Shown here: positions 1 through 11,040 of the stretch, one piece after another
Layout: the number at the start of each line of letters is the position of its first letter
Numbering within the stretch: the first letter of the stretch is position 1
Origin: a virus
Lineage: Duplodnaviria > Heunggongvirae > Uroviricota > Caudoviricetes
DNA: 28,861 nt
Strand: one strand, 5' to 3'
Virus record (IMG/VR): IMGVR_UViG_2695420523_000005
The notes under the pieces: model-generated
What the model saw: only the letters and a program-made list of their open reading frames with translations
Told to the model about the DNA's origin: nothing
Database searches by the model: none
Made by a program: the position numbers and the translations under genes

Positions 1-575
<575 letters not shown>

Positions 576-588
576 CCTTGATCTCCTG

Positions 589-912
589 TTATTGCAGTCC
601 ATTTTTTACGCCATACGCGGCTAACCCCAAAAGCAGTGCGGTAATAATGAACGACGTTATTTTAGAAACAATGCCGCCAAAGAACCCACTTGAGATGGAA
701 TCTAACCGGTTAAGGAGTTTGTCCAGGTTGGAGTGTTGAATACTATGTTGCGCCGGGGTCATATCACCAAAGTAGGTTTTCAGCTGATCGTTGACCTCCT
801 GGCCAATTTCTTCACGTAGCTCTTTACCTAATTTGCCAACAACCTCCCGAGCAACGATCGCGGCAATACGCTCAACTTGCTCTGTTGTAACGCCCGCCAT
901 CTCGTTCGACAT
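589..912 (-). CDS. Small tail-anchored membrane protein (soluble charged N-terminal part, single C-terminal TM helix); candidate non-canonical holin / lysis-associated protein
   Basis: ORF-track ORF 589..924. ATG at 912 is preceded by GGAGG (plus 916..920 region); hydrophobic stretch ITSFIITALLLGLAAYGV near the C-terminus; sits immediately upstream of the 33..575 gene. Confidence 0.5.
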   Translation of the reverse strand: MSNEMAGVTTEQVERIAAIVAREVVGKLGKELREEIGQEVNDQLKTYFGDMTPAQHSIQHSNLDKLLNRLDSISSGFFGGIVSKITSFIITALLLGLAAYGVKNGLQ

Positions 913-993
913 GTTTTCCTCCATGAAAAGTCAAATCGGGATGGCGGATTTATATCACATTTCACCCTTTTGTTGTAGGTGTGTACTTACCTA

Positions 994-1227
994 TCATTCA
1001 GCATTGCAACGGACTGATGAGAAAGCACCTACTCCTACCCATCGCCAGTTATAGATGCTACCCGCTTTGTATAAGGTATAGTTGTTCACTTTTTTAACAG
1101 CATATATGGGTATGACTGTCTCCTGTCCACCAATGATAGCCTCACCGTAACATATAGGTGTCGGCAATTTCTGGCAGCCAGTAAGAGAGAGAACAACAGC
1201 TATTGTTAGAAATAATCTTTTCATCAT
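994..1227 (-). CDS. Small lipoprotein (signal peptide + lipobox LTGC); Cor/Llp-like receptor-blocking superinfection-exclusion candidate
   Basis: 77 aa, N-terminus MMKRLFLTIAVVLSLTGC is a textbook lipoprotein signal with cysteine at +1. Size and position distal to the tail fiber genes match Cor (phi80/N15/T1/HK022) and Llp (T5). Assignment is by architecture, not sequence identity. Confidence 0.6.
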   Translation of the reverse strand: MMKRLFLTIAVVLSLTGCQKLPTPICYGEAIIGGQETVIPIYAVKKVNNYTLYKAGSIYNWRWVGVGAFSSVRCNAE

Positions 1228-1234
1228 TTACTCA

Positions 1235-1843
1235 TCAGTTATACAGATTTCTATTTATTACCGGTACTCTGCCATTTACGCTAAAACTATGGCCGCCATT
1301 AAGTTGGTTTACGAATATCGAGCTAACAGTATTTCCATATGCCGCATATCCATAAACCATTGTCATGGCTCCGCCCGGTACTGGAACAGCGGACACATTC
1401 GCATATGTTGGGATTATCGCTGGAGGGTAATCAAAAACATGCCCTCCAGAGCTGTTCCACTCCGTATTATTAAGAAAGGTAAATGAAAGTGGGATATTTG
1501 CCGTATTATAGATTTCCTCCCCTTGTGCATTGAAAAAACTCATGCCCCAAGTTTCTTTTTTGGCTATACCTTTCGAAAATACGTATATCGTGGCACTAGA
1601 GTCGCTACCCCGACCTCCGAAACTGTAAATCACCTGGTTATTACGCACTATTCTGTTGGCTATTAATGAAACAGCTTTCGAATAGGCAACAAAAATCATC
1701 GGTGAACGATCTGGAGATATTTGGGTGTTAAACTCTGTCCCGCCAGACAAAGAAACAACCTGCTTTCTCTGAAAAACGATAGGAGACAAAGAAGGAGACA
1801 TCCAGACCTTCCCGTCAGATCGATATATCTTGCTTCCGTACAT
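1235..1843 (-). CDS. Hypothetical protein (Gly/Ser/Asn-rich, probably beta-rich); candidate adhesin, fiber accessory protein or moron
   Basis: 202-aa ORF; ATG at 1843..1841 overlaps the upstream stop (TAATG); no SD; region visibly AT-richer than the tail genes. Confidence 0.55.
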   Translation of the reverse strand: MYGSKIYRSDGKVWMSPSLSPIVFQRKQVVSLSGGTEFNTQISPDRSPMIFVAYSKAVSLIANRIVRNNQVIYSFGGRGSDSSATIYVFSKGIAKKETWGMSFFNAQGEEIYNTANIPLSFTFLNNTEWNSSGGHVFDYPPAIIPTYANVSAVPVPGGAMTMVYGYAAYGNTVSSIFVNQLNGGHSFSVNGRVPVINRNLYN

Positions 1844-2097
1844 TATTTTTGAAAAACCAATATGTTTAAATTGCCACTAGCTCCAGACCACGAAATGGTA
1901 TTTCCAGAAACCGTAAGACTTGTGTATTTTCCATTGGTTACGTCCATTATGTAATAGTCGATTCCCAATCCCGCCTCAACCTCATATGTTCTACTTCCTG
2001 AACCAGAGGGAGTAAAATAATCGAGGTAATAAACAGGGGCCAACGCATCGACCATCTCCTGTCTTGATGGCGACCAAACCTGTGCACCATAGCTCAT
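1843..2097 (-). CDS. Hypothetical protein; translationally coupled to, or frameshift-split from, the downstream 202-aa ORF
   Basis: 84-aa ORF; ATG at 2097 with AAGGA about 8 nt upstream; stop TAA at 1845..1843 overlaps the next start. Confidence 0.5.
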   Translation of the reverse strand: MSYGAQVWSPSRQEMVDALAPVYYLDYFTPSGSGSRTYEVEAGLGIDYYIMDVTNGKYTSLTVSGNTISWSGASGNLNILVFQK

Positions 2098-2117
2098 AAA
2101 TATATCCTTATAACTGC

Positions 2118-2150
2118 GGTTGTGAGGCCATATTTATCGACCTCACAACC
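2118..2150 (-). promoter_or_regulatory. Stem-loop between the tail fiber stop and the 84-aa ORF
   Basis: 10-bp perfect stem ggttgtgagg/cctcacaacc with a 13-nt loop; followed by SD AAGGA and ATG 2097. Confidence 0.45.
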
Positions 2151-2187
2151 ATCTTATAAATTATCCTTATTAGAAATAATGTCTAAA

Positions 2188-5100
2188 TCAGTTGCTTGTT
2201 GCCCCAACAGTACCGGCAAATTTCAGCCATTGACCTGACGGACTTCTATTACTACGGTAGTGATAAACGAGGATTGCGTTTGTCACTCCACCGTAGTCAG
2301 CTTTATGTGACGTTGTTAAACGAATTGTATAATCACCGTTAGGTAGATTAAAAACTTCGATTATAGATTCTGCTAATTCTACAGCACCAAATCCCGTTAT
2401 ATTGTTGATACTGCCAGCATTGAATCCCATAGCATCGCCAAAGCCAATCCAATAACTTTTGCTAAATGCCCCATTTGATTTAAGGTGGCTAATGAATGTG
2501 GACAAACTCATGCCCATATCCCCACCAGAAACAGAGGAAGTTCGCACAGTCATGCTTGGAAGAGAACTACTCTTCACATAGGAACTGAGAAGGTTTGTTA
2601 CCTCTGTTTTCGTATAAGCATTAAGGTTAGCCGCAGTCAAAGTTATATCGGCAGAGCCATCAAACGCCACACCTGCAATTTTCCTTGCTGTCTGCAATTT
2701 TGTGGCGGTTGCGGCATTACCAGTAGTGTTCTGATTACCAGTTGTATTCACACCAGGGATTGAATCCTTAGCGGTATATACCTGCGCCCACGCTGACCAT
2801 GCTGCACCTGTGTTATCTCTTCGTGAGCGAATGAAAACTGGCGCATGTGCACCGCTCGTACCACTCCAGCCAATAAGCAACTCGCCTTCACCAGCAGCAC
2901 TCGCACCTTTCATGTGCAATACGTTGCCATACGTGGTCGGGTAGCTATTGTTGTACGCCTCATACATTTGAATGCCAGCAGTGCCTTGAGTAGAGCCGCT
3001 TAACGCCGTAACTCGGCCACGAGATACCAATGTATTAATATTGATATCGCCTGAACCATCAAACTTAACACCATTGATGTTTCTCGCTGTTTGCAACTTC
3101 GTAGCTGTTGAAGCATTACCGTTCAAACTACCATTTACGCCACCAGTCACATTTAGTCCATTACCAATTGATACAGCACCGCTGGTATTATTAATTGTAA
3201 TAGGTCGCAAACCGTTCCATGAACCTAATGTGTCTCCTGATGCTGTTAGCAGGAAATATGTGTTCACCCCATCATTACGGATAAAGAACCCAAACTTACC
3301 GTAAGCAATGCGGAAACCATTTGCATATTTTGAAACGATCTCACCAGAAGACGTTAACCCTCCAGATAATGTGCCACCTGAAAGCGGTAATGCTCCTACA
3401 TCAGAAGCTGTTGGTTTGTTTTTAGTGTTATACGCTCTGCGCCATCCTGGTGAATAGGTCGTCCCGTTAAACACATAGACAAACTCCGCATTAGTGAGTG
3501 CGCCAGAGACACCTGTCGTTGTTGCCGTTGTTATACGAATCGTATAATTGTTCGAGCTACTGCCTTTATTAAATACCTCAATAACTGCGCCAGCCAGTGG
3601 AATAATGCCGCATCCTGTTTCGCTGTCTGGTATGGATGCACTATTTGCATACGCCCAGGCACAACGCGCTATCCATGTCTTTGCATTAAAAGCACCATTA
3701 TCTCGTAGCAGAGTCACTAATTGCTCTGTTGTTATTGAAGCTCCATTATCACCTGTTTCAAGCCAACCAGTAGGAGATGCCGGGCAACCTATATTTGCTG
3801 GCGACAAGGCAATATTTGCCGAGCCGTCAAACGACACCCCATTGATAGTACGCGCAGTCTGCAACTTCGTAGCAGTAGCCGCGTTGCCCGTTGTGTTCTG
3901 ATTACCAGTCGTATTAACACCTGGCAAATTAATATTCGCAGTACCATCAAAGCTCACGCCGCCGATAGTTCTTGCCGTCTGAAGTTTCGTAGCAGTTGCA
4001 GCATTACCAGTGGTGTTCTGATTACCCGTAGTGTTTACACCTGGAAGGTTAATATTTGCAGAACCGTCGAAAACAACTCCACCGATAGATCTTGCCGTCT
4101 GCAATTTCGTGGCTGTACTTGCATTACCATTCAATGAACCAGTTAATCCACCTGTAACAGACAACGGACCTGAAACTGTTCCTCCGGTTGTTGGCAGTGC
4201 TCCAATATCTAACGGCGTCGGTTTCTGATGTGTGCTATACATCGTATAAACAACACCATCGGTAACGCTGGAAGGCTTACTCGCTGAATATGTTGGCGAT
4301 GTATAAATAGAAACTGTCGCATTTGCAGTACAATCCCAATGGATATTTACACGAGTCGCATAATTGCCAATCTCAACGTAAATATCATATGTATCGCCGG
4401 ATGTGTTGATCCAGGCGAAATTCGTTAATCCGACAGCTGTACGCTTCCACAAAGCACCTGTAATCCCTTTGGGGTTTCCATTGCCTGCTCGTAGAACCAG
4501 TTCTGAAATGCCTGCCTGATGTGGGGAGCCGACGTTGTAACCAGCGCCACCAATCAATGCGATGTAAACGATGGAACTCGCTTGTGGCATGGTAACCGTA
4601 GCCAGTTTGAACCACCCTGCCCCGCCAGAGAAAGACATCGTTACTGAATTTAAAGTACCAATATCTTTCGGCGTTAATTTGATATCCGCAGTCAGTGCTT
4701 TACCGTTAACTTTTCGGTTAGATGGCACCCTGCTATTCGCATTGTCATTGGCTGCTTTAACTGCTTTTGGCGTTGCGGCCAGCGATTCACTGGTGCTGTC
4801 GACAGCACTGCTAAGTTTCACAACACCTTTAGTTGTAAGGCTTGCGTCTTCCATCGCAACTGCACCGGCAATCTCTTCAGCACGATCAGCAGCAGCTTCC
4901 GCACGGGTCGCAGCGGATTCAGCAGCAGTTTTGCTCTGAGATGCTGCCGTCGCACTGCCTGCCGCCTCTGTTGCTTTCGTGGATGCCGTCGTGGCGCTGC
5001 CCTTCGCTGCTGACGCCTGTCTGGTCGCCTCATCTTTTGAAGCAGACGCCGATGATGCCGATGACGCCGCCGAACTGGCGGACGATGCGGCTGCCGTTTT

Positions 5101-6216
5101 TGAGGATTCTGCACGGGTTTCCGACGCTTTCGCGTTCGTTTCGGATGTCTTCGCTGCGGAAGCAGACCTCGCTGCTGCGCTGGCCTGTTCAGTGGCTTGG
5201 CCAGCCTTCGTTGTGGCAGTTGAAGCAGACGATGCGGCACTTTCTGCCGATTTTCCGGCGGCGGTGGCACTGGCTGAGGCCTGCCCGGCACTTGTTGACG
5301 CGGCACTGGCAGACGACGCAGCCGCTGTTTTTGAGCCTGCCGCAGCCGAGGCGCTCTGTCCCGCTGCCGTTTCAGAAGACCTGGCGTTCGTCTCGGACGT
5401 TTTTGCCGCCTTCGCGGAATTTCCTGCCGCCGTTGCCGAGGAAGCGGCATTACTGGCGCTCGAGGCTGCGCTCGTTTCTGATGATTTCGCTGCCTCTTTT
5501 GAGGCCGCCGCATCCCGGGCTGAGGTGGCAGCTTCTGACGCCTTCGTGGTCGCGGTGGATGCAGAAGTGGCTGCAGATTTTTGTGACGCTGCAGCATTCG
5601 TTTCAGATTTTTTCGCAGCAGTTGCACTCGCACTTGCGGCACTTTGTGAGGATGCCGCAGCGGATGCACTTTGAGACGCTTGAGAGGCTTTTTCTCCAGC
5701 GGCATTGGCGCTTTTTGCTGCTGCGGCAGCACTGGCCGCCGCCTCACGAGCTTTGTCGCCAGCAGCATCAATCGCGTCAGTGTTATTTTTATACCACTCA
5801 ACGTTTTCGTTGTGCTCGTTGACGATCTGCATTAGCGGCTTAACGGTCACTTCTGTACCGTCTTCACGCTCGATTGTCACCTCATCCAGCGCAGTCAACC
5901 AACTGCGTATGGACTTGGAATCAGCCGACATACGCGACATTAGCGCAGTAAAGCGCGCGCTAAACTGTGTTAAGTCGCCTTCATAGGTCGTAATGATTCG
6001 GCACGGAACTTCAGACTGAGTTTCGCCGGTATAAGGTTCTGAGAGAACAATGTTCGTATCACTGGTTACGCGCTTGATCTCATACAGCTTATTGTCGGGG
6101 CCAATGACGATCATCCCCGGCAACACACCATTAGCTGTTACGTTCCAGGCTGTCCCTGCCCCAACCAGAGTATTGCTGCCCTGTGTAAATGTGATAGTAC
6201 CTTCCCTGTACCACAT
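2188..6216 (-). CDS. stf: Side tail fiber protein (lambda Stf-like) with Ala/Ser-rich segment, GNAATATKLQTAR-type repeats and duplicated C-terminal tip-like domain
   Basis: 1342-aa ORF; ATG at 6216 with AAGGAG upstream. Residues ~150-450 (KTSETNAAASQKSAATSASTATTKASEAATSARDAAASKEAAKSSET...) closely match the lambda Stf Ala-rich region as I recall it; at least 5 copies of the N(G/T)NA(A/S)TATKLQTAR motif. Confidence 0.9.
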   Translation of the reverse strand: MWYREGTITFTQGSNTLVGAGTAWNVTANGVLPGMIVIGPDNKLYEIKRVTSDTNIVLSEPYTGETQSEVPCRIITTYEGDLTQFSARFTALMSRMSADSKSIRSWLTALDEVTIEREDGTEVTVKPLMQIVNEHNENVEWYKNNTDAIDAAGDKAREAAASAAAAAKSANAAGEKASQASQSASAAASSQSAASASATAAKKSETNAAASQKSAATSASTATTKASEAATSARDAAASKEAAKSSETSAASSASNAASSATAAGNSAKAAKTSETNARSSETAAGQSASAAAGSKTAAASSASAASTSAGQASASATAAGKSAESAASSASTATTKAGQATEQASAAARSASAAKTSETNAKASETRAESSKTAAASSASSAASSASSASASKDEATRQASAAKGSATTASTKATEAAGSATAASQSKTAAESAATRAEAAADRAEEIAGAVAMEDASLTTKGVVKLSSAVDSTSESLAATPKAVKAANDNANSRVPSNRKVNGKALTADIKLTPKDIGTLNSVTMSFSGGAGWFKLATVTMPQASSIVYIALIGGAGYNVGSPHQAGISELVLRAGNGNPKGITGALWKRTAVGLTNFAWINTSGDTYDIYVEIGNYATRVNIHWDCTANATVSIYTSPTYSASKPSSVTDGVVYTMYSTHQKPTPLDIGALPTTGGTVSGPLSVTGGLTGSLNGNASTATKLQTARSIGGVVFDGSANINLPGVNTTGNQNTTGNAATATKLQTARTIGGVSFDGTANINLPGVNTTGNQNTTGNAATATKLQTARTINGVSFDGSANIALSPANIGCPASPTGWLETGDNGASITTEQLVTLLRDNGAFNAKTWIARCAWAYANSASIPDSETGCGIIPLAGAVIEVFNKGSSSNNYTIRITTATTTGVSGALTNAEFVYVFNGTTYSPGWRRAYNTKNKPTASDVGALPLSGGTLSGGLTSSGEIVSKYANGFRIAYGKFGFFIRNDGVNTYFLLTASGDTLGSWNGLRPITINNTSGAVSIGNGLNVTGGVNGSLNGNASTATKLQTARNINGVKFDGSGDININTLVSRGRVTALSGSTQGTAGIQMYEAYNNSYPTTYGNVLHMKGASAAGEGELLIGWSGTSGAHAPVFIRSRRDNTGAAWSAWAQVYTAKDSIPGVNTTGNQNTTGNAATATKLQTARKIAGVAFDGSADITLTAANLNAYTKTEVTNLLSSYVKSSSLPSMTVRTSSVSGGDMGMSLSTFISHLKSNGAFSKSYWIGFGDAMGFNAGSINNITGFGAVELAESIIEVFNLPNGDYTIRLTTSHKADYGGVTNAILVYHYRSNRSPSGQWLKFAGTVGATSN
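3821..4141 (-). repeat. Three tandem ~120-bp coding repeats in the tail fiber gene, with related copies at ~2668..2760 and ~3051..3133
   Basis: Repeated block ...accatcaaa..acgcc..gatag....gccgtctgcaa.ttcgtagc.gt.gc.gcattacc.gt.gtgttctgattacc.gt.gt.tt.acacctgg... read directly; encodes the GNAATATKLQTAR motif. Confidence 0.8.
4867..5769 (-). repeat. Low-complexity Ala/Ser/Thr-rich coding segment of the tail fiber
   Basis: Protein residues ~150-450 are almost exclusively A/S/T/K/E; this creates long spurious ORFs in other frames on both strands. Confidence 0.85.
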
Positions 6217-6237
6217 GTTGAATATGCTCCTTGATTT

Positions 6238-6258
6238 GGCGGGCTATCCTTGCCCGCC
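6238..6258 (-). promoter_or_regulatory. GC-rich stem-loop between J and the tail fiber with AAGGAUA loop
   Basis: Perfect 7-bp stem ggcgggc/gcccgcc, loop tatcctt; followed on the minus strand by the SD AAGGAG and the fiber ATG at 6216. Confidence 0.5.
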
Positions 6259-6260
6259 AT

Positions 6261-6279
6261 TAAGTAGATACTTACCTAT
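6261..6279. promoter_or_regulatory. Junction motif taagtagatacttacctat between J and the tail fiber
   Basis: Contains the palindrome taagta ga tactta and the TACTTACCTAT core shared with 985..997. Confidence 0.35.
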
Positions 6280-6309
6280 TTTTACCGATATAAAATTTTT
6301 TTTCCACCA

Positions 6310-9300
6310 TCACAGACGGCCAATTCTTACTCGTAAGACGTTGTTATCGTCATAAACGTCAATCCGCTGACCATTTATAACCAATCGCCCATTGCCGCCG
6401 CTATTACCGTTGATCTCAAGCGTTCCATTTTTGCCGAACCGCCATCCAGATCTACCGCTAACAAAATTGGTAGATTGCAGATCGCCTACTTTTGCATTGG
6501 TGATTGTGCCATCCTTGATATACGCTCCATTCATATAGGCGATACTGTTTTCGATAACAAATGGCGTTGTGATCTTCCCGTTAACAGAGTTGACCAAACC
6601 AAACCTGTCCGCCTGAACCAAAAACTGAGATAGCCCAGTGGTGTCAATACCAAGCGCAATACCGGCAACATACTTCTGCCCTCCGCTCGTTGAAGTCTCC
6701 ATTTTCAACGTCCACGCGGTTGACACTTTTTTGTTGGTATCAGCAATAGCTGTTGCCTGCTGTTGAATTGTCGCGGTATTTCCATTCACCTCTGCTTTCA
6801 GAGTATCGATTCGCCCACTCAGAGCATTATCTGCCTGCGTTCTCGCTTTCGTTTCAGTTGTGACCGCCGCGGAAATGTTGGCTGCCGTTTGAGACTCTAA
6901 GTTTGTGATTTGAGTCGCCAATGCAGCATCTTGCTCTGTACGCGTTTTCGTTTCGGTTGCTACAGCCGCTTTAATATCCTCTTTGTATTGAGAGGTCAGC
7001 TTGGTGATCTGAGACGACAACGCCGAGTCAGCATCAGTTCGAGCCTGCGTTTCAACTGCAACGGCCGCACTAATATCTTTCGCTGTCTGTGCTTTTAAAC
7101 TTGAAACCTCTTTTGTTAAAGCGGTATCACCATCTGCACGAGCCGTTGTTTCTCTGGCAAGAGACGCCTTGAGATCATTAGCTTTTGCTGTAAGAGACGT
7201 AATCTGGGTAGACAATGCACTATCGGCATCAGTCCTTGCTTTTGTCTCTACAGCAACCGCTGCGGCAATATCAGTTCCGGTTTGTGCTCGCAGGCTGTTA
7301 ATTTCTCGTGAGAGCGCCTGGTCAGCACTTGCTCTGGCCTCCTGCTCCTGAGTGATGGCAGCGGATATATCACCGTCAACCTTTGACTGAAGCTGGTTTA
7401 TTTGTTTGGCTAACGCAGAGTCCCCGCTTGCTCGGGCCTCCTGCTCACTGCGTATTGCAGCAGAAATATCATCATCAACCTTTGCCTGAAGTTGGGTGAT
7501 CTGGCTTGCCAGAGCCGAATCTTCCGTTGCTCGGGCTTCTTGCTCTTCCTTAATAGCTGCGACGATATCGTTGCTTACTTTCGACTCAAGCTGAGTGATT
7601 TGTGTCGTCAGAGCTTCATCGGCAGATGTACGAGCCTCCTGCTCTGTACTAATCGCCGCGCTGATATCTCCTTCAAACTTAGATTGCAGCTGAGTGACAC
7701 GCTTTGCCAACGCTTCATCGCCATCGGCACGAGCGGTGGACTCTTCCAGAATACTGGCCTTAATGTCTTCGCCAATTTCTACGCGAATTTCCTCAACCTT
7801 CGTGGCCATTGCAGACATATCATCAGCAAAGGTTTTCTGTGTTGTTGCGATCTTCGCGTTATTGACCATCTGCTTGTGCTGGTCTTCATCTTGACGAAGA
7901 GCCAGGTCAATATTTGTTTTGGCCAAAGCCTCAATGTTCGTAGTCAGTTCTGCACTGGCACGATCGACCTCTGCAACCGTCTTTTTCATTTCTTCAACGG
8001 CAGCGGAGCTTTCCTCTACCGTTGACTGTAACACTTCCAGTTGTTTAGCGTTTGCAGCATCACCTTCAACACGAGCCTCGCTTTCCTTAGCAATAAGAGC
8101 CGCCGCTTCATCTCTTGCAGCCTTTATTGCCTCGACTGTATTAGCGAGAGCTTTATCGTGTTCAGATACGGTGTTTTCGATTTCAACAATTGCAGCATCA
8201 GTAGCATCAATTTTTTCAAACGCTTCATTGACCTTGTTAATCGTTGCCGAAACCTCACCTTTAAGCTCGGTTTGTGCGTTCTCCAAAGCATCGCTACGCT
8301 CGTTGAATTTTATTTCAAAACCCGCGAGGTTATCGCTGAACTGCTTATCTAATTCAGCTATATCTTCCTTAACGTCGTTTACCGCCCCCTCTAAAGATTC
8401 GACGCTCTGGTTGATATGCTCATTTAACTCGTCAACTGCTTCTTGAGAGACTTTGCTGTTGATGTCCTCAAGCAGAGCCTGACCAAGCTCGGAAGATGTA
8501 ATTTTGCCAGTCAGGAACGACAGTACATCGCGAGTTGTCGCCTCTGTACCCAAGTTTGAGTTCGGAGGACTTAACATACCTCGCTTGTTCGATGCTCGAA
8601 CCCAGTAATACCACGTTTCGCTATCCCCAAGACCAGCATGTGTAAAGGTGGTGCTTGCAGACTCTGCGATCAGTTTCGCCGTATCCAGATTGTTGGTCTG
8701 GGATGCGTAAACATTAATGTGATCAAGGTCTACCGAATCTGGATTAACCCAATTCAGTATCACATTACGATAGTCTCCAACGGCCGTTAATGACGTTGGG
8801 GCATCAGGCGGTGTCATTGTGCCCAACACCTGATAAACGGTACTGATAATCTCTGTTTTTTTACCGTTGAATGAAACCGCATACAGCTGGAAGTCGTAGC
8901 GTCCATTCTCCGCGACATTAACGATTTCGTATTGCTCTTCGGTTACACGCGCCGATTGCCAGTTCGATACATTGTTTTCATCAGAACGTCGCCAACTGAT
9001 CCAATACTCTGGAGATTTCCCTTCCCATGTTGCAGTCAGTTTTACTGACAGGTTGCCCGGGCTTGAGAGATAAGTCCCTTCAGTGATTTGCAGATTAGAT
9101 GGCTTGGAGTAAGTTGGGTCCAATACCGTCGTATTCTGCGGGATCAGCGTTGCACCATTGTCGATTGCCTCATATTTAGACGGATTGTTCTCAACAGCGG
9201 TGATGTCAAAGCTACCCGACGTTTCCCCCTGTGCGATGTTAACGATGCGAACGCGCATAGGTTCGAGATCTGATTCTGTAATTGTCCAGACACCGTTCAA

Positions 9301-11040
9301 AACAGGCGTTTCCGCTGACGACAGGGCTTTTGAAAACGTAACCTTTGTTATGTTTTCGCCAGTTTCAAGAACATCGCGTTCAACGATTTTGCCTTCCTGA
9401 TTCAATATCCGAATAAAGCTGCCGCTTTTAGCTAACGACACAGGCGCATCGAGAGTGATGCTGTTTTTGGTAAACTCCACAATTCGACCGGAGTTACGTT
9501 TACCTGCACGATATTTGTTCTGAATCAGAACGGTTTCACCAGGCATCAGAAATGAGGCGTCTAAGCCGGCAGTAAATGTAATTACATCCGACTCCATTCT
9601 GGCGGTATACAACAGCCACAAACCAACTCGGTGAGCCTGGCCTCGGCTTGTACATCCAAATGCTACGACTTCTGTTTTACGCTCACCATAACGGCGCATT
9701 GCGTCCTGATCTTCAACGTACTCGATATTTTGCTTATAACCGTCCTCCTTGTTGTTGTAGGTTACGAGCGCAACGGATGGGCGATCTTTACGCGCAGAAC
9801 CTTTATAGGTAAACAGCCCATCTTTGACGTTGGAGTTGGTAAACATCATTACCGGATCTGATGGGCTATCCTGCATGATGTTAACCATGCCACCAGCCCA
9901 AAACACCATGCCGCGGAATGCACCGGCAATATCCTGAATTAATCGGTATGCGTCTTGTCGACTGGTGATCTGCGTATTGATTGCAAAGCGTTTCTCTTTA
10001 CCCCCAAAGCCATCATCGACCTCTTCGTCACAATATCGACCAATCTGGTAGAGCTGGCCGAGGTCAATCATGGATTCCGACACAAATTGCCCAAGACCAT
10101 ACCGAGTATTGGTAAGCAAATCGTAGAGAATCCACGCAGGGTTTGAAGAAGACAACAGCTTAAAAGTACCGTCCCATACGCCGACATAAGTATTGGTGTA
10201 TTCGTTGTAGTTTGACGGTACTCGGATTTTGATACCGCGCACCAAATACGAACGGGAAGGCATTGTGCTACCAAACTGCTCTGAATTGACCTTCAAGCCA
10301 ACAAGAGCAGAGTTAGGGTAGTTCATTGGCGTGTCGACAATCTCACCGATGGAATCAACCCATGTGTCGTTGTAGAGGTACTGGCTACTATTATCATCTG
10401 TAAGACGAATCACCCTAACCTTGTATGCACGACCAGGCTTAGGCAGTTTCAGCTCATAGCTACGGTAATACACGCCGGTTTTCTTTGCCGTTAGCGTGAT
10501 ATCAACGCTTTTCTCACCTTCTGCCACTACATCAGAAAATGTTGCGTCTGCGTTGGCGATCTGGAATTTGTACTTCACCGTAGTGCCATTTGTATCGCCA
10601 GAGCTTTTATCAACGCTACGTAAAGAGGGGAATTTCATGATGACACGAACGCGATCAGCTTCATCGTTATCGATTGAAACCGTAACGTCGTGTGTTTTTT
10701 TAAGCTGAATATTTACGGACTTAGGCGTTTCAACAAAATCAAAACCAGCCATTGGCGTCTGGTCTTGTGAGCCGTCACGAAAATCCCATGTAATACCGCT
10801 GAAGTTGGAAGAGCCATCTTCATTCAAGATCGGTAAATCGTCGATGAAGATCGACTTTGCGCCATTTACCAGGCCACCGATAACCCCCTCGCCAAGAAGG
10901 TCGAGGATGGCTGCCATAGCACGAGAATTGACAGTATCATCAGCTTCAACCGGGGTACGGCTGGAGCTTTTACTTTTCTTGCCACCAGCACCGGCAATAA
11001 GAAGCGGTAATTTTTTCTTCTTGAACTGTTCCATGTCCAA
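6310..11040 (-). CDS. J: Tail tip attachment / host specificity protein J homolog with ~450-aa tandem-repeat insert and short non-lambda C-terminus
   Basis: 1576-aa ORF. Recalled lambda J blocks are conserved (NSALVGLKVNSEQFGS, AFGCTSRGQAHRVGLWL, GQKYVAGIALG...SQFLVQADR). The track start at 11040 is TTG; first ATG is at 11034; AAGGA lies just upstream. Confidence 0.92.
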   Translation of the reverse strand: MDMEQFKKKKLPLLIAGAGGKKSKSSSRTPVEADDTVNSRAMAAILDLLGEGVIGGLVNGAKSIFIDDLPILNEDGSSNFSGITWDFRDGSQDQTPMAGFDFVETPKSVNIQLKKTHDVTVSIDNDEADRVRVIMKFPSLRSVDKSSGDTNGTTVKYKFQIANADATFSDVVAEGEKSVDITLTAKKTGVYYRSYELKLPKPGRAYKVRVIRLTDDNSSQYLYNDTWVDSIGEIVDTPMNYPNSALVGLKVNSEQFGSTMPSRSYLVRGIKIRVPSNYNEYTNTYVGVWDGTFKLLSSSNPAWILYDLLTNTRYGLGQFVSESMIDLGQLYQIGRYCDEEVDDGFGGKEKRFAINTQITSRQDAYRLIQDIAGAFRGMVFWAGGMVNIMQDSPSDPVMMFTNSNVKDGLFTYKGSARKDRPSVALVTYNNKEDGYKQNIEYVEDQDAMRRYGERKTEVVAFGCTSRGQAHRVGLWLLYTARMESDVITFTAGLDASFLMPGETVLIQNKYRAGKRNSGRIVEFTKNSITLDAPVSLAKSGSFIRILNQEGKIVERDVLETGENITKVTFSKALSSAETPVLNGVWTITESDLEPMRVRIVNIAQGETSGSFDITAVENNPSKYEAIDNGATLIPQNTTVLDPTYSKPSNLQITEGTYLSSPGNLSVKLTATWEGKSPEYWISWRRSDENNVSNWQSARVTEEQYEIVNVAENGRYDFQLYAVSFNGKKTEIISTVYQVLGTMTPPDAPTSLTAVGDYRNVILNWVNPDSVDLDHINVYASQTNNLDTAKLIAESASTTFTHAGLGDSETWYYWVRASNKRGMLSPPNSNLGTEATTRDVLSFLTGKITSSELGQALLEDINSKVSQEAVDELNEHINQSVESLEGAVNDVKEDIAELDKQFSDNLAGFEIKFNERSDALENAQTELKGEVSATINKVNEAFEKIDATDAAIVEIENTVSEHDKALANTVEAIKAARDEAAALIAKESEARVEGDAANAKQLEVLQSTVEESSAAVEEMKKTVAEVDRASAELTTNIEALAKTNIDLALRQDEDQHKQMVNNAKIATTQKTFADDMSAMATKVEEIRVEIGEDIKASILEESTARADGDEALAKRVTQLQSKFEGDISAAISTEQEARTSADEALTTQITQLESKVSNDIVAAIKEEQEARATEDSALASQITQLQAKVDDDISAAIRSEQEARASGDSALAKQINQLQSKVDGDISAAITQEQEARASADQALSREINSLRAQTGTDIAAAVAVETKARTDADSALSTQITSLTAKANDLKASLARETTARADGDTALTKEVSSLKAQTAKDISAAVAVETQARTDADSALSSQITKLTSQYKEDIKAAVATETKTRTEQDAALATQITNLESQTAANISAAVTTETKARTQADNALSGRIDTLKAEVNGNTATIQQQATAIADTNKKVSTAWTLKMETSTSGGQKYVAGIALGIDTTGLSQFLVQADRFGLVNSVNGKITTPFVIENSIAYMNGAYIKDGTITNAKVGDLQSTNFVSGRSGWRFGKNGTLEINGNSGGNGRLVINGQRIDVYDDNNVLRVRIGRL
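6790..7760 (-). repeat. About ten tandem 99-bp (33-aa) coding repeats inside the J-like gene
   Basis: Periodicity visible in DNA (gctcgggcctcctgctc-like blocks near 7340, 7440, 7540, 7640) and in protein (DISAAI..EQEARASADEAL..QITQLQSKV repeated). Boundaries approximate. Confidence 0.8.

What the first reader, a model, noticed from the sequence alone, without database searches (positions are those of the whole stretch)
2212..3774. Side tail fiber contains two copies of a ~110-aa tip-like domain (internal and C-terminal)
Residues ~815-930 (NGAFNAKTWIARCAW...AVIEVFNKGSSSNNYTIRITT...TNAEFVYVF...SPGWRRAYN) and ~1225-1335 (NGAFSKSYWIGFG...ESIIEVFNLPNGDYTIRLTT...TNAILVYHY...SPSGQWLKF) are clearly related. 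Each follows GNAATATKLQTAR-type repeats. This looks like a duplicated or recombined receptor-binding module, so the fiber may carry a remnant of an earlier tip, or two binding specificities. No obvious C-terminal intramolecular chaperone/peptidase domain is visible.
Basis: seen in the sequence. Interest (0 to 1): 0.5.

Follow-up and report, generated by a model that had tools for sequence, protein, structure and literature searches.

The report
Tail fibre with two Mu-S′-type knobs
The side tail fibre of this E. coli phage-plasmid does carry two related ~100-residue globular domains, but they are two separately acquired modules of a widespread, structurally solved tail-fibre domain family (one mid-fibre type, one end-of-fibre type), which is ordinary mosaic tail-fibre architecture and not a leftover old tip.

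Summary
In the 1342-aa fibre (window 2188-6216, minus strand), residues ~816-935 and ~1231-1342 are homologous: 35% identity, Smith-Waterman score 132 against 33±6 for shuffles (z≈17), with the shared flanking motif excluded.

The family is large, with at least 593 clusters at 50% identity, and has no Pfam model.

The internal copy is the common type found in Mu S′, P1 Sv′ and P7 Sv. It is always followed by a KPTxxDVGALP linker and further modules, and it was never a natural C-terminus in the proteins examined. So "remnant of an earlier tip" is not supported.

The C-terminal copy belongs to a small separate clade. Members are at least 68% identical to each other and at most 35% to everything else. 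This clade always ends the protein, on several unrelated fibre backbones, with no Tfa chaperone gene and no S74 chaperone domain.

The C-terminal copy occupies the exchangeable tip position. Sister phage-plasmids carry a Peptidase_S74-type end after the same junction (Y1213).

The two copies assort independently, and breakpoints fall on the repeated GNAATATKLQTAR-coding DNA.

Verdict: ordinary modular mosaicism, with a mildly new terminal subtype. Receptor binding is inferred, not shown.

The parts
2188..6216 (-). Side tail fibre gene, 1342 aa plus stop. P1 S / Mu S-like mosaic fibre of an SSU5-like phage-plasmid.
   Evidence: ORF list and translation. 91% amino-acid identity to Cyrano CYRAN_21, annotated 'tail fiber protein'. 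PHROG tail-fibre families.
3412..3771 (-). Internal copy of the Mu-S'-type globular domain (residues 816-935). This is the common, Cys-containing type.
3385..3420 (-). NKPTASDVGALP linker (residues 933-944) joining the internal copy to the next module.
   Evidence: Conserved after internal-type domains across the family. A second such linker at residues 660-675 aligns with 929-944.
3193..3492 (-). T4 gp34-like trimerisation module (residues 909-1008) directly after the internal copy.
   Evidence: Pfam PF21446 Gp34_trimer, E 6.8e-29. phmmer to Mu S 5YVQ and T4 gp34 4UXE/5NXF.
2767..3036 (-). Swappable knob module (residues ~1061-1150). Cyrano carries a different sequence here.
   Evidence: Only 11 of 60 identical residues to Cyrano in the block 1081-1140, inside an otherwise 91% identical protein. 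DNA homology to Cyrano breaks at 2760 and 3044.
2645..2722 (-). Fifth GNAATATKLQTAR-x-I-x-GV-x-FDGS-x-(N/D)-I junction motif (protein residues 1166-1191). It is one of five such DNA repeats; the others are at 3044-3121, 3812-3889, 3932-4009 and 4052-4129.
   Evidence: the repeat finder family D1, 5 copies at 68-100% identity. Protein motif positions. Homology breakpoints with relatives fall at the repeat edges.
2527..2631 (-). Predicted helical neck (residues 1196-1230, ANLNAYTKTEVTNLLSSYVKSS...). The tip-cassette junction is at Y1213 (window ~2577).
   Evidence: The AF2 model has a helix at model residues 13-23, with low pLDDT of 59-67. Sister plasmids share DNA only down to window 2577 and then diverge.
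2191..2526 (-). C-terminal copy of the domain (residues 1231-1342). This is the terminal-only clade, which lacks the Cys residues and the linker. It is the inferred distal tip.
   Evidence: SW z~17 against the internal copy. tblastn to Mu S', 39% identity, E 3e-6. AF2 pLDDT 74-87 over the domain. Foldseek hits only 8JU3, E 1.4e-7. The clade is always terminal.

Best explanation
The fibre is a beads-on-a-string mosaic. Globular modules are joined by short conserved junction motifs (GN[AS][AS]TATKLQTAR-x-I-x-GV-x-FDGS-x-[ND]-I, and KPTxxD[VI]GALP).

Two of the beads share the fold of the first variable-region domain of the phage Mu G(-) fibre S'/gp52 (PDB 8JU3). They were not made by duplication inside this gene. 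They are two anciently diverged subtypes brought together by recombination at the junction motifs.

The internal copy (residues 816-935) is the common mid-fibre subtype. It is a knob on the shaft, always followed by a linker and more modules.

The C-terminal copy (residues 1231-1342, with its helical neck from 1196) is a rare subtype used only as the end of a fibre. It occupies the exchangeable tip cassette that begins after Y1213. I infer that it is the distal, host-contacting tip. I also infer that it folds without a Tfa-type chaperone or an S74 intramolecular chaperone.

Shown here: the homology, the fold, the clade structure, the positions in the proteins, the independent assortment, the breakpoints, and the absence of chaperone genes or domains next to the gene.

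Inferred: trimeric arrangement, receptor (probably surface glycan) binding by the terminal copy, and any binding role of the internal copy.
For: Homology and fold.

Family size and architecture. A profile search of 1.84 billion representatives gives 593 clusters at E<=1e-3. In Mu the domain is followed by a knob and then the U'-dependent tip. In P1, P7, D108 and Yersinia Mu-like phages it lies inside the invertible variable segment.

Clade structure. The C-terminal copy is 68-100% identical to 9 other instances and at most 35% identical to the remaining ~160. The internal copy is 30-96% identical to the bulk of the family.

Position in the protein. All members of the terminal clade end 6-9 residues after the domain. 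They sit on different backbones:
- SSU5-like fibres with and without the internal copy (L007-L017, P0059).
- A 591-aa protein (P0074) and a 406-aa protein (P0152).
- A P2-H-like 1174-aa fibre on a 237-kb contig, 64% identical (L018).
The only internal-type instances that end a protein are contig-end fragments or disrupted ORFs.

Tip cassette. The terminal-module DNA is present in full in 73 of 149 matching plasmids, which are ~107-114 kb and non-mobilizable. Others share only window 2577-2760 and then carry a different end. One example is L038, whose end is a Peptidase_S74 domain.

Breakpoints with Cyrano, L017 and the plasmids fall at 2577, 2758-2760 and 3044. These are the edges of the motif-coding repeats D1 and D2.

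No Tfa gene. In Cyrano and L017 the holin gene follows the fibre directly. In the window the intervening ORFs are a moron cassette that includes Cor.

Cyrano (pLF82), which has the same two-copy fibre, produces virions (PMC9928086).

Against: - No binding data exist for either copy.
- I could not read the paper describing 8JU3, so the role of this domain in Mu is unknown to me.
- Only monomer models could be made, and the C-terminal model is of moderate quality (mean pLDDT 71).
- Only the best 150 of the 593 family hits were inspected. A natural terminal use of the internal type, or an internal use of the terminal type, could exist among the rest.
- A chaperone or a separate adhesin encoded elsewhere in the genome cannot be excluded from a 29-kb window.
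- In Mu, the only characterised member, the host-contacting tip is a different domain further downstream. So the fold itself is not evidence of receptor binding.
Confidence: 0.65

Rival explanations
1. The second copy arose by a duplication inside this fibre gene and has since diverged.
For: There are two copies of one domain in one protein, each after the same junction motif. True intragenic duplications do occur in this family. P0032 and P0033 have adjacent copies 87-93% identical, and P0077 has copies 100% identical.
Against: The copies are only 35% identical to each other. The C-terminal copy is 64-100% identical to terminal copies on backbones that lack the internal copy (L017, L018, P0059, P0074, P0152). 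Its distance to this gene's own internal copy is the same as its distance to any other family member. The copies are gained and lost independently.
Confidence: 0.05
2. The internal copy is the fossil of a former C-terminal tip, onto which later modules were appended.
For: The domain family can end a fibre, as the terminal clade shows. The internal copy lies after three junction motifs, where a tip could once have been.
Against: Internal-type domains are never natural C-termini in the ~170 instances examined. The five apparent cases are contig-end fragments or disrupted ORFs. The type always carries the KPTxxDVGALP linker to a following module. In Mu S', P1 Sv', P7 Sv and Yersinia phages it is the first module of the variable part, not the last. 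The internal copy is well conserved, not decaying: 96% identity to P0050 and P0051, and an AF2 pLDDT of 87.6.
Confidence: 0.07
3. Both copies bind host surface structures, so the fibre has two specificities: a distal one and a lateral one.
Confidence: 0.15
4. The C-terminal domain is not an adhesin. It is a docking platform for a separately encoded distal protein, by analogy with T4 gp34-gp35-gp36 joints or gp38 adhesins.
For: The fibre contains T4 gp34-like modules. In the window and in L038 two small ORFs (84 aa and 202/188 aa) follow the fibre. L018 has a lipoprotein and a 213-aa ORF downstream.
Against: Cyrano, L017 and most relatives have the same terminal domain with the holin gene directly downstream and no extra ORFs. 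ORF84 and ORF202 also accompany the S74-type tip allele in L038, so they are not tied to this domain. No second fibre gene lies in the 29-kb window.
Confidence: 0.08

Closest known systems
Phage Mu G(-) tail fibre S'/gp52, first domain of the variable region (PDB 8JU3, residues ~186-329; Mori et al. 2024, Virology 593:110017, paper not readable here)
   Different: Mu has one copy, followed by a knob and a U'(Tfa)-dependent tip. Here there are two copies. The second ends the protein, lacks the Cys residues and the linker, and has no Tfa gene next to it.
P1 Sv' / P7 Sv / D108 S' invertible tail-fibre segments
   Same: They contain the internal-type domain as the first variable module. P1 S also shares 82% identical DNA with window 3149-4041, which spans the internal copy (H18).
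   Different: Those fibres switch tips by DNA inversion and use Tfa chaperones. The window has no inverted repeats and no invertase near the fibre. Tip variation here is between genomes, not within one.
Escherichia phage Cyrano (pLF82) tail fibre CYRAN_21 and ~70 E. coli SSU5-like phage-plasmid fibres
   Same: Essentially the same gene, with both copies in the same places. It is 91% identical at the protein level and 96.6% at the DNA level over 92% of the gene.
   Different: Cyrano has a different knob module at residues 1061-1150. It also lacks the ORF84-ORF202-cor cassette downstream.
R-type pyocin (R1/R2) fibres with Knob1, Knob2 and a lectin-like foot (PDB 6CL6, 6CU2)
   Different: There is no detectable sequence relationship. 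The pyocin knobs are adjacent and the tip is a different, lectin-like domain. Here the tip itself is one of the two related domains.
Fibres with C-terminal Peptidase_S74 intramolecular chaperone (K1F endosialidase / T5 pb1 type)
   Same: This is the alternative allele at the same tip position in sister phage-plasmids (L038: Peptidase_S74 at 866-922, after the same NAYTKTEV-NLLSSY neck).
   Different: The window's fibre has no S74 domain.

Membership tests
Mu S'/gp52 variable-region domain family (8JU3 domain; no Pfam model) | Significant sequence similarity to the 8JU3 domain | tested here: met
   Internal copy: phmmer domain E 1.9e-26. C-terminal copy: tblastn to Mu S', 39% identity, E 3e-6. 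Both are matched by the family HMM.
Mu S'/gp52 variable-region domain family (8JU3 domain; no Pfam model) | Same three-dimensional fold | tested here: met
Mu S'/gp52 variable-region domain family, common (mid-fibre) subtype | Followed by a GWRRxYN..KPTxxD[VI]GALP linker and further modules; conserved Cys in the C-x-(G/C)-SW and TGCG motifs | tested here: met
   This row is the result for the internal copy, which meets both features. The C-terminal copy has its own row below.
Mu S'/gp52 variable-region domain family, common (mid-fibre) subtype | The same features, applied to the C-terminal copy | tested here: not met
   It ends ...GQWLKFAGTVGATSN* with no linker or later module. The Cys positions read G/F (IGFGD, TGFG). 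It groups with 9 terminal-only relatives, 68-100% identical to it and at most 35% to the rest.
Tfa (Caudo_TAP)-dependent fibre tips (lambda Stf, P2 H, Mu S/S') | Tail-fibre assembly gene immediately downstream, and a conserved ...RPIQ..ING.WY... type C-terminal tip | tested here: not met
   No Caudo_TAP hit in the downstream ORFs. Holin follows directly in Cyrano and L017. The C-terminal sequence is unlike the Mu S' tip.
Peptidase_S74 intramolecular-chaperone fibres | C-terminal PF13884 domain | tested here: not met
   Absent in the window fibre, even at E<=1. Present in the alternative allele L038.
T4 gp34-like proximal fibre | Gp34_trimer (PF21446) module | tested here: met
   Residues 909-1008, E 6.8e-29. 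This is one shared module only, not evidence that the whole protein is a gp34 orthologue.
R-pyocin / staphylococcal phage RBP 'knob' domains | Knob fold | tested here: inconclusive
Invertible (Gin/Cin-type) tail-fibre switch | Inverted crossover sites flanking alternative tips, plus an invertase gene | tested here: not met
   No inverted repeats of at least 20 nt in window 1-6400. No invertase-like ORF near the fibre.

The most novel reading that the evidence does not exclude
The terminal-only clade is a previously undescribed kind of fibre tip. It would be a Mu-S'-fold domain that has become a self-folding, chaperone-independent receptor-binding end, and that moves between unrelated fibre backbones (SSU5-like siphovirus fibres and a P2-H-like fibre on a 237-kb contig). 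Together with the internal copy, it would give the fibre two binding sites of one fold.
Probability: 0.2. Interest if true: 0.45.

Novelty: new member of a known kind. Interest (0 to 1): 0.22.

Why it matters
For annotation, the result gives both ~100-aa stretches a structural identity (the PDB 8JU3 fold). It also shows that a large tail-fibre domain family, with at least 593 clusters at 50% identity, has no Pfam model.

For host-range work on E. coli SSU5-like phage-plasmids such as pLF82/Cyrano, it locates the exchangeable tip cassette (residues 1214-1342) and the junction motifs where modules are swapped. That is where one would engineer or predict specificity.

The chaperone-free terminal subtype would be a convenient portable tip if it binds a receptor. 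Beyond that, the finding is an ordinary example of tail-fibre mosaicism.

Tried and rejected
- Whole-protein self-blastp returned only the identity hit. I split the protein into pieces instead.
- The three homologous-protein searches returned almost only short fragments and close relatives. They could not show domain position in full-length fibres. The exhaustive HMM search and the locus fetches did.
- The 241-aa "proteins" P0001 and P0003 looked like free-standing tip ORFs. They are the ends of fibres in deleted phage-plasmids, fused after ParB genes or a truncated tape measure, so I dropped them as evidence.
- The paper on 8JU3 is not held. Papers that cite it give no detail on this domain.
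- I considered an invertible-segment or shufflon explanation, because the domain heads the Mu/P1 invertible segments. There are no inverted repeats and no invertase, so I rejected it.
- I considered ORF84 and ORF202 as tip-specific chaperones or adhesins. They are absent from Cyrano and present with a different tip allele in L038, so I rejected that.
- NCBIfam gives nothing for the fibre. Pfam gives nothing for either copy, even at E<=1.
- dN/dS was not attempted. Relatives are either too close or saturated.

Full report
**Context.** The window is the late region of an SSU5-like E. coli phage-plasmid. All genes lie on the minus strand: head genes, a 1529-aa tape measure, a 1576-aa gpJ, the fibre, then lysis genes. 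The nearest annotated record is Escherichia phage Cyrano (pLF82 of E. coli LF82). Its tail fibre CYRAN_21 (1341 aa) is 91% identical to the window's fibre. Cyrano produces siphovirus virions (PMC9928086).

**Checking the observation.** The fibre ORF is window 2188..6216 (-), 1342 aa.

- blastp of residues 790-945 against 946-1342 aligns 791-916 with 1180-1320 at 34.7% identity, E 1.3e-15.
- That alignment includes the shared INGVSFDGS motif, so I repeated the test on 810-935 against 1200-1342. The Smith-Waterman score is 132, against 32.9±5.9 (maximum 65) for 2000 shuffles, giving z≈17.
- A domain HMM finds exactly two copies, at 828-931 and 1236-1336.
- Five GN[AS][AS]TATKLQTAR motifs lie at residues 697, 737, 777, 1033 and 1166. 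The copies follow the third and the fifth.
- Pfam finds only Gp34_trimer (909-1008), with no Peptidase_S74 domain.

**What the domain is.** phmmer against PDB sequences aligns residues 790-942 with residues 186-329 of 8JU3, the phage Mu G(−) tail fibre S′/gp52 (domain E 1.9e-26).

| | Internal copy | C-terminal copy plus neck |
|---|---|---|
| AF2 alignment used | 14 sequences | 17 sequences |
| Mean pLDDT | 87.6, pTM 0.82 | 71 overall, 74-87 within the domain |
| Foldseek vs PDB | only 8JU3: E 2e-11, TMq 0.82, rmsd 2.0 | only 8JU3: E 1.4e-7 |

The order of secondary-structure elements is the same in both models.

**The family and where its members sit.** A profile of both copies plus a few relatives, searched against 1.84 billion representatives, gives 593 clusters at E≤1e-3. 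tblastn against phage records finds the domain in the variable, invertible C-terminal segments of several fibres: Mu S′, D108 S′, P1 Sv′, P7 Sv, P88, D6 and Yersinia Mu-like phages.

In Mu the variable part reads domain → knob → tip, and the tip depends on the chaperone U′. The domain starts about 45 residues after the G-segment boundary. In Yersinia phage vB_YpM_44 it lies at the start of a 366-aa variable ORF, next to the invertase and followed by a 175-aa ORF.

**Two subtypes.** I extracted 170 domain instances from the 174 proteins in hand.

- The internal copy resembles the bulk of the family. It is 30-60% identical to most instances and up to 96% to close relatives.
- The C-terminal copy is 68-100% identical to only nine instances and at most 35% to all the others.
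- Those nine, plus the viral-contig relatives, all end 6-9 residues after the domain. The endings read ...GQWLKFAGTVGATSN* or ...GQWLKFAG(T/A)(A/T)GATN(Q/E)GY*.
- They sit on different backbones:
  - SSU5-like fibres with the internal copy (L007-L016, P0031).
  - An SSU5-like fibre with a completely different middle and no internal copy (L017); P0059 (1237 aa) likewise carries only the terminal copy.
  - Proteins of 591 aa and 406 aa (P0074, P0152).
  - A 1174-aa fibre with a P2-H-type N-terminus (PF12571) on a 237-kb contig, 64% identical in the module (L018).
- Five internal-type instances appear to end a protein. They are contig-end fragments (…YSP, …YAP) or disrupted ORFs (…YSPDGVVH).
- Internal-type domains carry a GWRRxYN..KPTxxD[VI]GALP linker and conserved Cys residues. 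The terminal clade has neither.

**Independent modules, joined by recombination.** All three non-empty combinations exist:

- Both copies: the window and Cyrano.
- Terminal copy only: L017, L018 and P0059.
- Internal copy only: L038, the fibre of plasmid pGMI17-003_2.

The terminal-module DNA (window 2191-2760) matches 149 plasmid records, nearly all ~107-114 kb non-mobilizable E. coli plasmids. Seventy-three carry it in full. Many others share only window 2577-2760. In L038 the protein is identical up to ...NAYTKTEVANLLSSY (Y1213 in the window). It then continues into a short segment and a Peptidase_S74 intramolecular chaperone. L039 carries yet another end, plus a 77-aa downstream ORF. So residues 1214-1342 are one allele of an exchangeable end cassette. 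This is the main reason to read the C-terminal copy as the distal tip.

Homology breakpoints with Cyrano, L017 and the plasmids fall at window 2577, 2758-2760 and 3044. These are the edges of the 78-153-nt direct repeats that encode the junction motif (families D1 and D2). That fits module exchange by recombination at those repeats. There are no inverted repeats and no invertase, so this is not a Mu/P1-type switch.

**Chaperones.** In Cyrano and L017 the holin gene follows the fibre directly. In the window, 996-2170 is an insertion relative to Cyrano. It carries three ORFs:

- ORF84, matching phrog_557.
- ORF202, matching phrog_425.
- A 77-aa Cor exclusion lipoprotein (NF047972, E 2e-23).

ORF84 and ORF202 also accompany the S74-type allele in L038, so they are not partners of the terminal domain. 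No Caudo_TAP hit was found. That the terminal domain folds without a dedicated chaperone is an inference from these absences.

**Interpretation.** The fibre is a string of globular modules joined by conserved junction motifs. Two of the modules share the Mu-S′ fold but come from anciently separated subtypes.

- The internal copy is a mid-fibre knob, not the remnant of a tip.
- The C-terminal copy is a terminal-only subtype in the tip cassette. It is most likely the host-contacting end.
- Whether the internal copy also binds something cannot be told. The R-pyocin precedent, where Knob2 and the foot are both suggested to bind (PMC11871291), and the domain's place inside host-range-switching segments keep that reading open at low probability.

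Two-copy fibres occur elsewhere in the family. The copies are 43-50% identical in P0030 and P0065, 87-93% in P0032 and P0033 (adjacent copies), and 100% in P0077. Repetition of this domain is therefore not unusual.

**Limits.**

- Only monomer models could be made.
- Only the best 150 of the 593 family hits were inspected.
- The 8JU3 paper could not be read.
- No binding data exist.

**Verdict.** This is an ordinary mosaic fibre and a new member of a known kind. The mildly new element is the chaperone-less, terminal-only subtype of the Mu-S′ domain.

Noticed in passing
window 994-2170 (ORFs 1843..2097, 1235..1843 and 994..1227, all minus strand): A ~1.2-kb three-gene cassette sits between the fibre and the holin. 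It is absent from Cyrano and most relatives. It holds an 84-aa ORF (phrog_557, 'outer membrane protein'), a 202-aa ORF (phrog_425, 'membrane associated protein', a moron) and a 77-aa Cor superinfection-exclusion lipoprotein (NF047972, E 2e-23). Cor usually blocks FhuA-dependent phages, which hints that this phage's gpJ may use FhuA (my inference). ORF84 and ORF202 are also present in plasmid pGMI17-003_2 (L038).
   Followed up: partly
window 1203-1232 and 2167-2196: A 30-nt direct repeat at 77% identity brackets ORF84+ORF202. One copy overlaps the fibre stop codon and the other lies just upstream of cor. It could mark the cassette insertion boundary, or it could be chance.
   Followed up: no
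L038 (NZ_CP031136.1), fibre 2983..5919 (-); L039 (NZ_CP123030.1), fibre 2820..6920 (-): Sister phage-plasmids carry alternative fibre ends after the same NAYTKTEV-NLLSSY neck. One has a Peptidase_S74 intramolecular-chaperone end. The other has an unrelated ~170-aa end followed by a 77-aa ORF. This is a population-level tip polymorphism.
   Followed up: partly
L003 8001-8726 and L005 8001-8726: In these contigs only the last 241 codons of the fibre survive. They are fused directly after ParB-like genes (L003) or after a truncated 972-aa tape measure (L005). These are deletion derivatives of the phage-plasmid that have lost most tail genes.
   Followed up: partly
window 3412-3771 versus 2191-2526 (alignments A1 and A2): The Cys residues conserved in the common subtype (C-x-[G/C]-SW and TGCG) are all replaced in the terminal clade (IGFGD, TGFG). 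The joint loss could mean they contact each other or form a disulfide in the common subtype.
   Followed up: no
window ~4870-5770 (fibre residues ~150-450): A long Ala/Ser/Thr-rich low-complexity, probably coiled-coil, segment raises GC to 58% and reverses the AT skew. It produces long spurious ORFs in other frames and on the other strand (for example 4842..5822 +, 4818..5801 - and 4979..5674 +). Its length differs between relatives: the fibre's open frame is 1184-1438 codons in L007-L017.
   Followed up: no
window 6310-11040 (-): gpJ is 1576 aa, against 1132 aa for lambda J as I recall. It has FN3 and FNIII-A domains and a C-terminal Phage_Tail_Tip domain, so the central fibre is also enlarged in this phage group.
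   Followed up: no
P0032, P0033, P0077 (representative proteins): Other fibres carry true recent duplications of this domain. P0032 and P0033 have adjacent copies 25 aa apart at 87-93% identity. The 2160-aa P0077 has two 100% identical copies 705 aa apart.
   Followed up: partly
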